From Saccostrea cucullata (Eukaryota): a stretch of 64,000 nt of DNA. The translations under genes were made by a program, and so were the position numbers. Location: assembly GCF_032062105.1 (NCBI RefSeq), contig NW_026930969.1:1-64000 (forward strand), written 5' to 3'. Of the stretch, positions 27,602 to 59,460 are shown one piece after another (position 1 is the first letter of the stretch; each line of letters starts with the position of its first letter). A model generated the notes under the pieces. The model saw only the letters and a program-made list of their open reading frames with translations, was not told the DNA's origin and ran no database searches.

Positions 27602-30600
27602 TTACCATTCTTGAGAGCCTGTTCCTGTGATGGGCATCATTTCATCACATTCTAGATCCTTCCTGCGCTTCCTTCGAATCCACAGATAACACCCTACAAC
27701 AACAATCACAAGTCCTACGGCCACCCCTGCTGCTAGTCCGATCAAAAGAGTACGGACGGGCGGATCATCAGAGGCGGATTGTCGTCCGACTACTATTATA
27801 TTAGGAATATCTGTGTCATTTGTCGAAAGTGTTGTAATTACATATACGTCTTCATTTATGGTATTATTATAAAAATCAAAATTTCGTAATGTTGTTTGAT
27901 AGGACTTTGTACTAGGAGCAGAAGGCCGGGCTGTTATTGTGGTTGACGTAGTTTGCAGAGCGGGTTTAGTTGTTTTAAAACGTGTTTTTGTTGTCGCTTT
28001 TCTTGTTGAAGATTCTGTTGTTGGTCTGGTCATTATCATTTGAGTGGTGGTCAGTCTTGTTGATCTAAACGCTGTCGTAGACACTGATTGTTTGGTTGAG
28101 CTGGGTGGAGATGTGGCAGCAGTTGTGGTTGATTTTTTGGTAGACGCTCGTAAAGTTGTCGAAATTTTTGTCGGTTTTGTTGTCGATCTTACCAGTAACG
28201 TGGTGGTTGTTGTTCTTAATTTTTTTGTTGTTTTCGTCTTTTCTGTAGGCTTTGTAGTTGTTCTTGACTGCGATGTTAAGGTGGATGTAGTAGTTAATTG
28301 TTTGGTAGTACGCGGTGTTGTTGTATTTGTTTTTGCTGATTTTGTGGTTGATCTCGATGCTGATGTAACGCTAGTTGTATCTGATTTCAGTGTTGAGATT
28401 TTTGTTGGCTTTTCAGTAAAGGATGCCGATGACGTAGCAGTAGCAGTTGACTTGATTGTACTTGTCCTGGTTTTTGTTGGTTTCTTAGCAGAGCTTAAGG
28501 TTGATGTGGAGACGGTGTTGGTTGTTGGATTTCTTGAGCCGTTGGTAGTTTGTACTTTTGTTTGATATCCTGTAGTGGTAAGAGTGATTTGTTGTGCTTT
28601 TGATTGCTTATCTGCTGGTTTTGTTTTATACTCTGTGGTTACGAATGATTTTGCGGTCGATGTTTCTACATTGGTTATTGGTTTGATACCCGGCTCTGAC
28701 GTCTTCATATTAATAGTTTTAGTTTCTGCTGTGACTGAAATAGATGTCCCATCTTCAGGGATAACTGTTATATCTTTAGTTATGTTTGTTTGATCTGACT
28801 TGATACTCGTATTAATGTCAGGTTCTTTTGTCACACTAGCCACATTAGAAGTCACGTGACTCTTAGTTGTATGACGTATTGTTAACTTCGTTGAAGTCAT
28901 ATCTGTTGTAGTTTCCACTGTATTTGCGTCATGTGTTTTATCTGTTGCTTGTACTGAACTGGTCTCTTGTGTTACGCTTATTGGTTGTTGAGCTTTATTT
29001 GTTGTAACGTTTTGGGATGCTAGAGTCGTATCGATATAAGAAGTTGAAGTTGCAGTTAATTCAGTTGTAGTTGAATCTGGGATATCAAATATAATTAGAG
29101 CAAATTAAAATATATGCTGATAAACTGATTTGAACGTAATAAATAATGTAAATAAACACAGATAATTGCAAACAAAAAACTTTACTTTGAAGTAATAATA
29201 ACCTCTGGCCATATATATATTTTCAGCTTGTAAACAACATTTGCATTCAGTCAAAGCTTAACGAGTTTCTTTGGAACAAAGTACCCTTTTTAATTGCTAC
29301 TAATGACTCTGAACTTGCCCAACATCTCTTGTCAAGAAGTATTTTAATGCTTTTTAATTAAAAAATTAAGTCTGGACAGGACTTTAATGTATTTCTTCAC
29401 AAATCCGAAAAAAATATAAGATATATCCATACATCCGGTATTAGGTAGTGACATTACATAAATATTGCATGTAGTTGAGTGTAACATTAAATGTTTTCAC
29501 TCAAGATAACCACTGTCAACCGTGCGCAGCCGAGGTTGACAATGGTTTTCTTGGGTGAAAACATTTATTATTATACTTTCATGTTAAATACTAAAATCTG
29601 ATTGGTTTAGAAGTTAACAATTTATTATGTTAGCAACACACGTGACAACGGGTAACACAACGGTAATACATGGTATCAGTTGCGCGTTTGAAAGAACCGG
29701 AATTATTATATCCGATAAATACTTGAATTTTGCGAGTGTAGGAAACATGCTTGCGAGCCAGAAATAACGAAGCTTTAAATATGATAAATGACTCTAATTC
29801 GAGTATCAAACAAACAATAAGGAGATTAGTGAACCGGTGAGTGTGAAATCTTCCTAATACATGAACGTAAAGACGATCGACGCTTAATCAATAAGACATT
29901 CAGTATAATAAAATAAATGGTGCCTGTTTTGGAGGGTAACATTTGAAATTGACACCCCTCGGAAAACCATTGTCAACCTCCGCTGACGCGTCGGTTGACA
30001 ATGGTTTTCCTTGGGGTGTCAATTTCAAATGTTACCCTCCAAAACAGGCACCATTTATATAATGTTACACTTAACTACATGGTATTTATTATATTATACT
30101 GAATTTTTTATACAAATACATATTACAGTGAATCTTGCGCGCATAAATTCTGTGCAGTCAACATTTTTTGGAATATCATCCGTCGTCAAGCAATGTTGAC
30201 TGTTGCTATGCTCAAGGGTATGGCTTCATTATTTAGCAGGTAATGGTGTTTTTAAACATATGTTTCTCTACGAATTAGATTCAACTAATTTACTTGAAAG
30301 TATAATACTTTGAAATCTATCCATATATTAGATAGTGACATCAAGGCCACATGCATATGGCACCTTCAGATATCATACAAAAAACCTTTTCGTCAATTAC
30401 GAGGACAAAAAAATTAATTCTTTTCTGTAAATGTACTAGTATTGCCCAAACATAAAATAAGTATTTTGTCTTAAAATGGCATATTACTTGCCGACATAAT
30501 ATTATTTTTATACCTTTAAAAATTTGTTCCTTAACAAATCTATACGAAAAAAGTCGAACATTTGTTTTGCTGAACGGGCATAAAAAAGTCGATGTTGGAC

Positions 30601-56841: not shown

Positions 56842-59460
56842 ATGAACTATATTAAAGGATGGACGCTTCAACAATGGTTTGCTCTTAAAATTAGGACTTT
56901 ATGACATAAATTAATATCTTGATTCTTTAAGTTGCTTTGAAATTTTTTGGTTGGACCAAACCAATTTTATGATATTCTGATAGCGGACTTGAAGACACAC
57001 TGATGCTACGATTGTTGCTTCTTTTGTAGGGTCTGGGTCTTTTTGCTGTGCTTTGCAACATTAATCCAAAACTCTGGTGACTTTATGAAGATCTTCATTA
57101 AACATTGCTCTCCAATGTCCATAAGCAGTATAAATTACTGGTAGAACTAATTCTGTTTAATATGTTTTAGACTGTAGGTCAAACTGCAGCACTCCTTTAA
57201 ACATCCGGGACAAGTGGTACTTCCGGGATGAACCTGGCTCTGTGTTGAGGGTCCGGAAGAAAAGTCTGGTTTTCAAACAAGCCGGAAAGAAGACGATACG
57301 CTATAAATGTCTAGAGGCTAAAGGCCAAACCTTCATGCTTAGGTATCGTTTGACTTTTTAAAAAAACAACATTTATTTAGTTTTGTCAATTTAAGTGACT
57401 GATTTGTCCTTCAAAATACATAAATATCACTTTTCCAGAACTCGAGTTAATGAAGAAAACGCCCAGGGAATATTGTGTATAGGATTTGTTTCGGTTGATG
57501 TACCCAAAGCTGATTTTAGTGTATGGAGACTGTCACGTAAGATCTGCTTGCCTCTTCACTAAATATTTCCAGCTGCTATTTGAAACCATTCCTTTGATAA
57601 AAATTAATGATATTCCACTAATTTGATTTTATCACTCACTTTGTTGTAGAGGAAGCCGCAGGTCACCCTTTGATGGCCCCTGTTTCGGTACCAGCTATGG
57701 TGACTCCAAGTATCAACAGTATGTGCAATGGGGTCCAGTCACAAATACAGTACTATGTACATAGGGCAAGTACGCATCACTTATTGCAGTCTTCACAATA
57801 TATCTAAAATGTGTAACTTTGTCACAATTCCCAAGATAAAATAGCTGCAGATCTGTAGTTCACTGGTCTGAAAAAATTGGATGGACGGTGCTGTCCATAT
57901 ATTTTTTTAGAGCTATAGTTCTGCAGCTAAGGATAAAAACTGTATCTTTTAGTCAACTAAATACATTGTGCATATAATCATAGATGCACAATTTATCGAA
58001 GACACTAGTTTTATTGTGCTTTATATGTATGAATTTAACACCAGTATCTACTGTATTCATAAACGTAATACTAAGTATACTATGCTCAGAAAAGACGTGT
58101 CGGTTCCCGCCAACTCTCCGACTCATGTGGCAGACGACAATACAGGGAGCATGGCGGCTATCATTTACAAAATACGACATGTACTTCATCACAATGAATA
58201 GAACCACACTCCACTTCAGCTGCGACACAAGAGACAAAGACAACTTTATTTTAAGGTTAGAACTGCATCATTATATGTTGCTTGAAAATTTATATTGTCG
58301 CTGCTTATTTTTTCACTACATGTATATATTATTAATAAATTAGGTAAAAATAATATTCTGGTTCTTTTTACAAAAGAAAAAAAAAGTAGAAAATCTATGC
58401 TCTATCTAAGTTTCTCGCTTTGACTCACCAGGGCCACTAATATACAGAAAGGAATAGACGGGGTTCTCTGTCTTCGTATTCTTCCGCTGTCCGGGGATCC
58501 TTACTACAGATTCAAAATTTCCAGAACGAATTGTAGGTACCTTTTAATAAAACAAGTTTTAATTTGATGCGTATAAGTGTATTCATTCAAAATCGAAAAT
58601 TTTAAATAATTTACATTCAAATAAATCGGGACTGCATGTCAATCTTACTCGAGGGGATTATTTTTTACTCCAGACAACTTTTCCATGATTTTACCGGACA
58701 ATCCTCGTAGAAGTTTTTGAATAAATTCTCTTTCAAAATAATATAACAACAGTTCGCAAATAAAGGAGCGCAATTAGTGCCCACGGGAAATCCTACAGTT
58801 TAATTGTTGGAAAGCTTGATCTCTGAGGACACCCGGGAGTATATAAATGTTGTCAATCAGGAACTCCAGAATCCTTATTATATCAAATTCAAACTGCTTG
58901 TGTGTACAATCAGAGTGGTTTTTATCAAAGGAATTTTGCTGATGACATCGCCGGATTAGAAAATTTCCGAGTTCATTTTTATTAAGAGAAGCAGTTGTCT
59001 ATTATATGAGTCTAGATTTTAACTTATCGTGAGGAATAACGAAAGTGAATCAATATAAAAAGTTCTTGATCTATCTTTGGTTGATTGTAGAAAAAAAAAT
59101 TTAATGTTCACCTGTAAAGTGTGTACGGTCTTGTGCAGGCGAACGTACATTTTCATATTATCGGTATGGTTGAATGGAGTAAGCCAATTGTCTAGTAAAG
59201 CCTAAAGTTACACTACATCGATGGCAATCTTACATATGTTATTTTTAGAAGTACGAATTATTTCTAGGGTAGGCAGTGTCATATCGTATAACGTAGATGA
59301 AGCTTAATATTTTTCTTTTTTTTCTTTTTCTTTTTTAGCTGGAAGGGATGACTCAGTTTTTGACATGATTAAAAGGGTTCCGCATGGTCAACGATTTCGT
59401 CTGTACAAAGATTGTAACTTGATCGAGAGCCCTGCACGACCACAATTCCTATATCCATAA
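56842..59460 (+). CDS. Uncharacterised secreted protein (286 aa) made of two tandem 4-Cys repeats
   Basis: Exons 56842-56876, 57030-57076, 57171-57342, 57439-57536, 57650-57769, 58090-58255, 58432-58532, 59339-59460; 861 nt, GT-AG, no internal stop. Signal peptide WVWVFLLCFATLIQNS; repeats CSTPLNIRDKW...C..FMLR...GILC...VP..CN and CRFPPTLRLMW...C..FILR...GVLC...VP..CN. Confidence 0.82.
58720..59060 (-). mobile_element. Penelope-like retroelement RT fragment (degraded), in the last intron of the secreted-protein gene
   Basis: Minus strand reads LEFLIDNIY...FQQ..VGFPVGTNCAPLFAN, matching the G-I-P-M-G-T-N-C-A-P RT motif, with frameshifts. Confidence 0.7.

What the first reader, a model, noticed from the sequence alone, without database searches (positions are those of the whole stretch)
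27602..59460. Compact four-gene cell-surface cluster between FAR and CNOT4
Seen: three co-oriented mucin-stalk type I membrane genes (A, the acidic-tail mucin, B) and one divergent secreted gene occupy 32 kb between two conserved housekeeping genes. Inference: a dedicated recognition or adhesion module with two receptors of different reach and tail, a cytoskeleton-linked mucin and a soluble partner. It could act in immunity, epithelial mucus or particle sorting, or gamete recognition.
Basis: inference. Interest (0 to 1): 0.7.

Follow-up and report, generated by a model that had tools for sequence, protein, structure and literature searches.

The report
Oyster scavenger-receptor-like pair with secreted neighbour
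Two of these four oyster genes are old duplicates built like arthropod class C scavenger receptors, and one of them starts 301 bases from a secreted-protein gene; the likely Pacific-oyster counterparts of that pair switch on together almost only in wound-repair blood cells, while the mucin between them is likely just a neighbour.

Summary
The four genes are real. A (804 aa) and B (557 aa) are ancient tandem paralogues: signal peptide, two Sushi/CCP domains, one MAM, Ser/Thr stalk, TM helix and short tail, with the same 8-exon plan. M is an unrelated mucin with an acidic tail and conserved LPPPP motifs. D (286 aa, not the short 3' part) is a secreted DUF7044/DUF7043 beta-barrel protein whose ATG lies 301 bp from B's. 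In a published Pacific-oyster haemocyte single-cell table, the genes matching B and D by name and position (G6092, G6093) are hyalinocyte-specific: 61% vs 1.2% and 83% vs 1.7% of cells. G6090 and G6091 are not listed. Hyalinocytes barely phagocytose, so B more likely serves adhesion, encapsulation or endocytosis than phagocytosis. No sign of fast ectodomain evolution (exon dN/dS 0.04-0.61), and A has further copies elsewhere in the genome. Verdict: a co-regulated B-D pair plus a paralogue and a bystander, not a shown four-part module. Interest 0.42.

The parts
27602..41307 (-). Gene A, SR-C-like type I receptor, 804 aa. Exons 41307-41244 (signal), 40825-40658 (CCP1), 40568-40398 (CCP2), 40086-39916, 37941-37801, 37542-37400, 37291-37210 (MAM), 29076-27602 (about 400-aa Ser/Thr stalk, TM, 26-aa tail without Tyr). 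CCP1 is strongly basic (net +12 in 54 aa).
   Evidence: Exon map; Pfam; RNA joints; charge
43167..46565 (-). Gene M, single-pass mucin unrelated to A/B. Exon 46565-45927 (signal core, Thr-rich stalk, TM) and exon 44245-43167 (357-aa acidic tail with LPPPP-type motifs and a conserved DILxSFxKETE block). First exon not located.
   Evidence: orthologues; no similarity to B; RNA depth
48787..56540 (-). Gene B, SR-C-like type I receptor, 557 aa. Exons 56540-56477, 56341-56183 (CCP1), 51481-51317 (CCP2), 51215-51054, 50801-50661, 50568-50426, 50290-50200 (MAM), 49535-48787 (about 190-aa stalk, TM, conserved Tyr-rich tail with a YxxL motif).
   Evidence: best solved MAM match is insect SR-C
56541..56841 (.). 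301-bp gap between the start codons of B and D; inferred shared bidirectional promoter and 5' UTRs
   Evidence: co-expression of likely orthologues
56842..59460 (+). Gene D, secreted DUF7044/DUF7043 protein, 286 aa, 8 exons, no TM segment, basic (pI 9.8); the N-terminal half is predicted as a lipocalin-like beta barrel
   Evidence: single copy
14057..18906 (-). FAR (fatty acyl-CoA reductase) exons seen on the left flank; 5' end of the gene not mapped
   Evidence: Pfam NAD_binding_4 at 17115-17372; ORFs
62319..64000 (-). Presumed 3' exons of CNOT4; the gene's RING exons lie beyond the window
   Evidence: zf-RING_4 at contig 73381-73612; minus-strand ORFs

Best explanation
A and B are old tandem duplicates with the two-CCP, MAM, mucin-stalk, membrane-helix layout of class C scavenger receptors, and B likely shares a bidirectional promoter with the secreted gene D, so that both are likely made by hyalinocytes, while M is likely an unrelated neighbour. 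Shown here: gene structures, paralogy, the 301-bp head-to-head gap and purifying selection. Taken from a paper, with orthology inferred from name and gene order: hyalinocyte-specific expression. Inferred: B holds its CCP-MAM head out on a glycosylated stalk, binds and clusters on foreign or damaged surfaces, and signals or is internalised through its conserved tyrosine tail during cell aggregation, encapsulation and wound sealing. A, with a cationic CCP1 and a longer stalk, would catch polyanions in another cell type. D would be a co-secreted ligand- or matrix-binding barrel protein.
For: Same 8 exons and intron phases 1,1,1,1,1,0,1 in A and B, with three exons of identical length (64, 141, 143 nt); BLASTP 5e-73; A's exon is the best non-self match of B's MAM exon among 52 genome matches. 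Pfam: 2 Sushi + 1 MAM and no somatomedin B, as described for MjSRC (PMC5222524). Insect SR-C MAM 8yt7 is the top single-domain PDB match by sequence and rank 1 by fold. M. gigas order G6092 (same name as UniProt K1RDH4, a member of B's cluster), G6093, G6094 CNOT4, G6095 amino-acid transporter matches B, D, CNOT4, SDF transporter here. G6092 is in 61% vs 1.2% and G6093 in 82.8% vs 1.7% of cells of cluster 2, 2nd and 5th by ratio among the top 125 cluster-2 rows read. Cluster 2 is hyalinocytes, 1.7% phagocytic, with collagen IV, perlecan and hemicentin among its markers. B's tail is 29/29 identical in S. echinata and 22/29 in M. gigas, against 28% for the stalk.
Against: G6092 and G6093 were matched by name and position, not by sequence; the annotation file was cut when stored. 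The single-cell data come from one animal of another genus. The margin of 8yt7 over MDGA1 is tiny (104.7 vs 103 bits), and a MAM tree groups A with B only at 62/40 support, with no arthropod SR-C rows. Absence of G6090/G6091 from a marker table does not show that they are silent in haemocytes. A and M are both transcribed in the same three bulk libraries, and M and D orthologues sit on one chromosome in Ostrea edulis, so some four-gene linkage is old. No ligand or function was tested.
Confidence: 0.6

Rival explanations
1. One reading: all four genes form one dedicated recognition or adhesion module, co-expressed and acting together.
For: Linkage is old: A, B, D on one chromosome in S. echinata; M and D on one in O. 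edulis. A and M are transcribed in the same bulk libraries. B and D are likely co-expressed.
Against: M shares no sequence with B and is 8-10 times deeper than A. G6090 and G6091 are absent from the haemocyte marker table. A has dispersed copies. Another probable surface-receptor gene lies just left of FAR, so such genes are not confined to the interval. No A orthologue was found outside Saccostrea (5 hits of 11 candidates).
Confidence: 0.1
2. B and D are a physical receptor-cofactor pair: D's barrels capture a lipid or microbial ligand and present it to B.
For: 301-bp head-to-head gap, adjacency kept in M. gigas, near-identical cell specificity, lipocalin-like barrel model, D basic and B's MAM acidic.
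Against: Head-to-head genes are often co-expressed through a shared promoter without binding (general knowledge, recalled). D's family is widespread in arthropods and rotifers, with no known link to SR-C in the papers searched. The barrel match is only a common fold (best Z 9.1, most 5-7).
Confidence: 0.13
3. B is a classical phagocytic pattern-recognition receptor like MjSRC or Drosophila SR-CI, and D is only a passenger on its promoter.
For: Same domain layout as MjSRC, which mediates phagocytosis of virus and bacteria; endocytic-type tyrosine motif in the tail.
Against: The likely B orthologue marks hyalinocytes (1.7% phagocytic) and is in 1.2% of all other haemocytes, which include the two professional phagocyte types.
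Confidence: 0.1
4. A and B reached the CCP-CCP-MAM layout by exon shuffling independently of arthropod SR-C and are plain adhesion molecules, like neuropilin or MDGA relatives.
For: All domain exons have phase-1 borders, which favours shuffling. MDGA1 and neuropilin MAM domains score close to SR-C.
Against: The whole order of parts matches SR-C, and SR-C is the top MAM match by sequence and by fold. An unreviewed scan note reports the same layout in a mussel with kinship to insect SR-C (lead only).
Confidence: 0.15

Closest known systems
MjSRC, class C scavenger receptor of the shrimp Marsupenaeus japonicus (PMC5222524)
   Same: Two CCP domains, one MAM domain, one TM helix, no somatomedin B domain; type I topology; haemocyte-linked
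   Different: MjSRC drives phagocytosis; B's likely orthologue marks barely phagocytic hyalinocytes. Oyster has a tandem pair with unlike stalks and tails plus a head-to-head secreted gene. Full-length sequence kinship was not tested.
Insect SR-C (Drosophila SR-CI to CIV; Spodoptera Sf-SR-C, PDB 8yt7; PMC6191154)
   Same: CCP, MAM, Ser/Thr-rich stalk, TM; 36% identity over the MAM domain by fold search; lineage-specific paralogue expansion (four in Drosophila, one in Tribolium; PMC2395250)
   Different: Insect forms carry a somatomedin B domain, not found in A or B.
DUF7042/DUF7043/DUF7044 invertebrate beta-barrel proteins (gene D)
   Same: Pfam DUF7044 (26.9 bits) and DUF7043 (26 bits), both just under the 27-bit cut-off here; Atlas neighbours in the same families
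   Different: D is a short secreted two-part form; no paper names these DUFs; function unknown. Fold rows include APCDD1 at Z 6.0, not above unrelated barrels.
Single-pass sialomucins with actin-linked tails, such as CD43 and podocalyxin (recalled, not tested) (gene M)
   Same: Thr-rich stalk, one TM helix, basic juxtamembrane patch, long disordered tail
   Different: No sequence family hit over cut-off; tail carries Ena/VASP-type FP4 motifs; orthologues found only in oysters or unnamed assemblies.

Membership tests
Class C scavenger receptor (SR-C) | Two N-terminal CCP/Sushi domains | tested here: met
   Pfam Sushi, 2 stretches in A and in B
Class C scavenger receptor (SR-C) | One MAM domain after the CCPs | tested here: met
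   Pfam MAM E 1e-37 and 2e-41; model ordered over residues 23-305
Class C scavenger receptor (SR-C) | Ser/Thr-rich stalk, single TM helix, cytoplasmic C-terminus | tested here: met
   S+T 0.45 (A) and 0.39 (B); one internal hydrophobic segment each; RNA joins A's MAM to its stalk
Class C scavenger receptor (SR-C) | Somatomedin B domain (insect members only; absent from shrimp MjSRC) | tested here: not met
   No such Pfam hit at E up to 0.1. PMC5222524 states that MjSRC lacks it too, so it does not define the whole class.
Class C scavenger receptor (SR-C) | Common descent with arthropod SR-C | tested here: inconclusive
   8yt7 is the top MAM match but by under 2 bits; tree had no arthropod rows
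Class C scavenger receptor (SR-C) | Binds polyanions or microbes and internalises them | not testable with these tools
   Only indirect: cationic CCP1 in A, tyrosine motif in B's tail
[quoted passage not shown] | Many MAM domains with LDLa repeats | tested here: not met
   One MAM, no LDLa hit; the automatic name is misleading
MDGA1 (UniProt name of the M. gigas B record) | Ig and FN3 domains with a GPI anchor (recalled) | tested here: not met
   No Ig or FN3 hit; true TM helix and cytoplasmic tail
DUF7043/DUF7044 family (gene D) | Profile match at the curated cut-off | tested here: inconclusive
   26.9 and 26 bits against 27; orthologues carry both families in precomputed hits
Ena/VASP EVH1 ligand (gene M) | Conserved cytoplasmic [FWYL]PxXP (FP4) motif | tested here: met
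   2, 3 and 3 matches to [FLWY]PxPP in the three tails; an LPPPP-type motif in at most 4 of 20,000 shuffles each; motif definition PMC8789275, which also counts 4,994 human instances
Ena/VASP EVH1 ligand (gene M) | Binds EVH1 | not testable with these tools
   No assay

The most novel reading that the evidence does not exclude
B and D are a promoter-sharing receptor-cofactor unit of hyalinocytes: a secreted DUF7043/7044 barrel protein captures a lipid or microbial ligand and hands it to a molluscan class C scavenger receptor that triggers encapsulation or wound sealing. This would be the first function for a widespread invertebrate DUF family and the first accessory protein for SR-C.
Probability: 0.13. 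Interest if true: 0.75.

Novelty: new member of a known kind. Interest (0 to 1): 0.42.

Why it matters
SR-C is described from insects and crustaceans; no bivalve member turned up in the library searches, though a 2026 preprint lists snail Sr-CI orthologues. The oyster genes carry misleading automatic names (mucin-5AC, MALRD, MDGA1). B is a surface protein whose likely orthologue is among the most specific hyalinocyte markers, so it is a candidate handle for sorting a cell type whose role in encapsulation and wound repair is still argued from morphology. Its co-expressed neighbour gives a first cell type for an unstudied DUF family.

Tried and rejected
Complex prediction of B ectodomain with D: no answer (score 0.04, alignments not used); not evidence either way. 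D by sequence against PDB: nothing under E 0.5; Foldseek: no match under E 0.001; model weak (pLDDT 53), C-terminal half barely tested. Stalk-length polymorphism of A: rejected, the second copy on C4750 has the same 490 codons; C4750 is read as a haplotig (about 94% DNA identity across FAR and A's last exon). Diversifying selection: no sign; 15 exon comparisons give dN/dS 0.04-0.61, after dropping 2 of 17 rows that were cross-matches of CCP2 to CCP1; pairwise averages can miss single sites. G25530, a MAM gene marking phagocyte clusters, was checked and rejected as B: it lies on another linkage group among other neighbours. ITAM in B's tail: spacing fits but the second half lacks L/I (consensus recalled). 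A CUB reading of an ORF after the C5283 copy: no Pfam support. Atlas search with B's ectodomain: all scores under 0.9; one Sushi+MAM mollusc cluster of 55 members at 0.78 is a lead only. Paper searches by gene id and DUF name: 0 hits. The top hit (a bacterial repeat protein) was dropped as spurious. One search's M model was two bases off and was redone.
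Full report
OBSERVATION. The window comes from a rock oyster: named Saccostrea records match its proteins letter for letter and lie on a contig of the same length, so they are probably this assembly's own annotation and not independent support. Between FAR and CNOT4 lie four genes. Matching stored proteins to the window gave unique GT-AG exon chains for A (804 aa), B (557 aa) and D (286 aa). M's two large exons join into a 571-aa frame; its first exon was not found. Reads laid on 27300-45780 join A's MAM exon to its stalk exon over 8133 nt in 4 of 4 runs (7, 3 and 2 reads and one contig) and show 5 of its 7 introns among the joints listed. B, D and M's intron were not covered by reads. 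The two N stretches lie between M and A and touch no exon found.

A AND B ARE PARALOGUES WITH THE SR-C LAYOUT. Both read signal peptide, Sushi, Sushi, MAM, Ser/Thr stalk, TM, short tail. They share eight exons, intron phases 1,1,1,1,1,0,1 and three exon lengths, but only 31-43% identity per domain, so the duplication is old. PMC5222524 (passages read) describes shrimp MjSRC as two CCP, one MAM and one TM, without somatomedin B, oligomerising and internalising through beta-arrestin2 and clathrin. [quoted passage not shown] The insect SR-C MAM structure 8yt7 is the top single-domain match by sequence and rank 1 by fold, but MDGA1 is within 2 bits. A 20-row MAM tree put A and B on one side at only 62/40 support and held no arthropod row (four sea-urchin proteins gave no row). 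So 'built like SR-C' is shown; 'is an SR-C by descent' is likely but open.

THE TWO RECEPTORS DIFFER. A has a 400-aa basic stalk, a CCP1 of net charge +12 (also +12 in S. echinata) and a tail without tyrosine. B has a 190-aa stalk, near-neutral CCPs and a tail with four tyrosines including YxxL. B's tail is far better kept than its stalk (22/29 vs 52/189 against M. gigas). A has further copies on contigs C11148, C19884/C22443 and C5283/C9186. A's stalk-TM exon matched only the window and one haplotig, and C5283 shows no stalk frame of 120 aa or more in about 36 kb downstream, so some copies may be secreted; contig ends leave this open for the others. All 15 valid exon comparisons give dN/dS under 1, and the ectodomains are 85-94% identical to S. 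echinata. That argues against a fast-evolving gamete or self-recognition locus.

M AND D. M has orthologues in Ostrea edulis and in unnamed assemblies, no similarity to B and one copy in the genome. In an otherwise drifting acidic tail, a DILxSFxKETE block and LPPPPE are kept in 3 of 3 full tails. These fit the Ena/VASP FP4 motif of PMC8789275 (passages), a weak predictor by itself. D is single-copy, 75-94% identical across four other oysters, has no TM segment and falls in the DUF7043/7044 group. A weak model gives a lipocalin-like barrel for residues 34-160. Its ATG is 301 bp from B's.

LINKAGE. A, B and D orthologues lie on one 53.5-Mb sequence in S. echinata; M and D on one 93.5-Mb sequence in O. 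edulis; B and D have consecutive accessions in M. gigas. No A orthologue was found outside Saccostrea in a word-limited search. Mussels and scallops could not be tested.

EXPRESSION. PMC12064177 (passages of the main text; searches of nine supplements; parts 16 and 17 of the marker table read; annotation file cut when stored) profiles 2,817 M. gigas haemocytes from one adult. G6094 is CNOT4 and G6095 an amino-acid transporter; here an SDF transporter follows CNOT4. G6092 bears the name of UniProt K1RDH4, a member of B's cluster, and G6093 is uncharacterised, where D stands. Both mark cluster 2: 61% vs 1.2% and 82.8% vs 1.7% of cells, 2nd and 5th by ratio among the 125 top rows read. Cluster 2 is hyalinocytes, 1.7% phagocytic, with collagen IV, perlecan, hemicentin and TIMP among its markers; the authors cite roles in wound healing, aggregation and encapsulation. 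G6089-G6091 are not in the table. In three bulk libraries of a related oyster, M's tail exon is about 8-10 times deeper than A's best-covered stalk bin; sequence divergence may bias this.

MECHANISM. Most likely (0.6): an SR-C-like gene duplicated in tandem; B kept a promoter shared with D and is used by hyalinocytes as a recognition and adhesion receptor that signals or recycles through its tyrosine tail during aggregation, encapsulation and wound sealing; A became a longer, cationic catcher used elsewhere and went on duplicating; M is a separately regulated, probably actin-tethered mucin. Gene anatomy, paralogy and selection are shown. Cell type rests on a paper and on inferred orthology. 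Ligands, signalling and any D-B contact are inferred or open.

NOVELTY. Searches found no bivalve SR-C paper and none naming these genes or DUFs; most subscription papers are not in the library. Reviews place SR-C in insects and crustaceans (PMC7062681, PMC10312389, PMC12027997, PMC2395250; passages). A 2026 preprint says snails have Sr-CI orthologues (10.64898/2026.07.10.737666, passages; its supplements could not be seen and may list such genes). An unreviewed note of this scan reports a mussel SR-C cluster. This is a new member of a known kind, with one useful new fact: a likely hyalinocyte-specific receptor and secreted-protein pair. The four-part module is not shown. Interest 0.42.

Noticed in passing
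window 3686-11505, + strand: Probable further type I receptor left of FAR: Cys-rich exons at 3686-4277 (lectin-like by eye, no Pfam hit), TM exon 10839-10940 and a tyrosine-rich tail exon 11101-11505.
   Followed up: partly
G000 C5283:69113-78536 (+) and C9186: A-derived copy with one recognisable CCP and a full MAM; DNA similarity remains over the CCP2 exon region (67.5%) but it no longer matches as protein. No stalk exon follows; EGF-repeat exons lie both upstream and downstream. Secreted form or shuffled head, not resolved.
   Followed up: partly
G000 C11148:925-23145 (-): Close A paralogue (dS 0.27) annotated as a 269-326-aa stalkless protein; it ends 925 bases from the contig end, so the stalkless form may be an assembly truncation.
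   Followed up: partly
G000 C4750: 20-kb haplotig of window 11.8-32.5 kb (about 94% identity) carrying a second allele of A's last exon, with 14 non-synonymous and 9 synonymous differences in 490 codons.
   Followed up: yes
window 51687-53837, also 5099-5846 and 12650-13699: Arrays of a 158-167-bp satellite; one fills B's second intron.
   Followed up: no
G000 C13605:138000-220500 (+): Over 40 MAM-exon matches in 82 kb, including a 3434-aa open frame: a very large multi-MAM gene.
   Followed up: no
window 48790, B's stop codon: B's stop overlaps a strong donor-like site; Magallana orthologues run 18 residues longer with a Cys-rich end. An alternative tail exon was not looked for with reads.
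   Followed up: no
PMC12064177 supplement, G25530 (LG7): A different MAM gene is enriched in the two phagocyte clusters (73% vs 26% in cluster 1); it could be a better candidate for a phagocytic MAM receptor.
   Followed up: no
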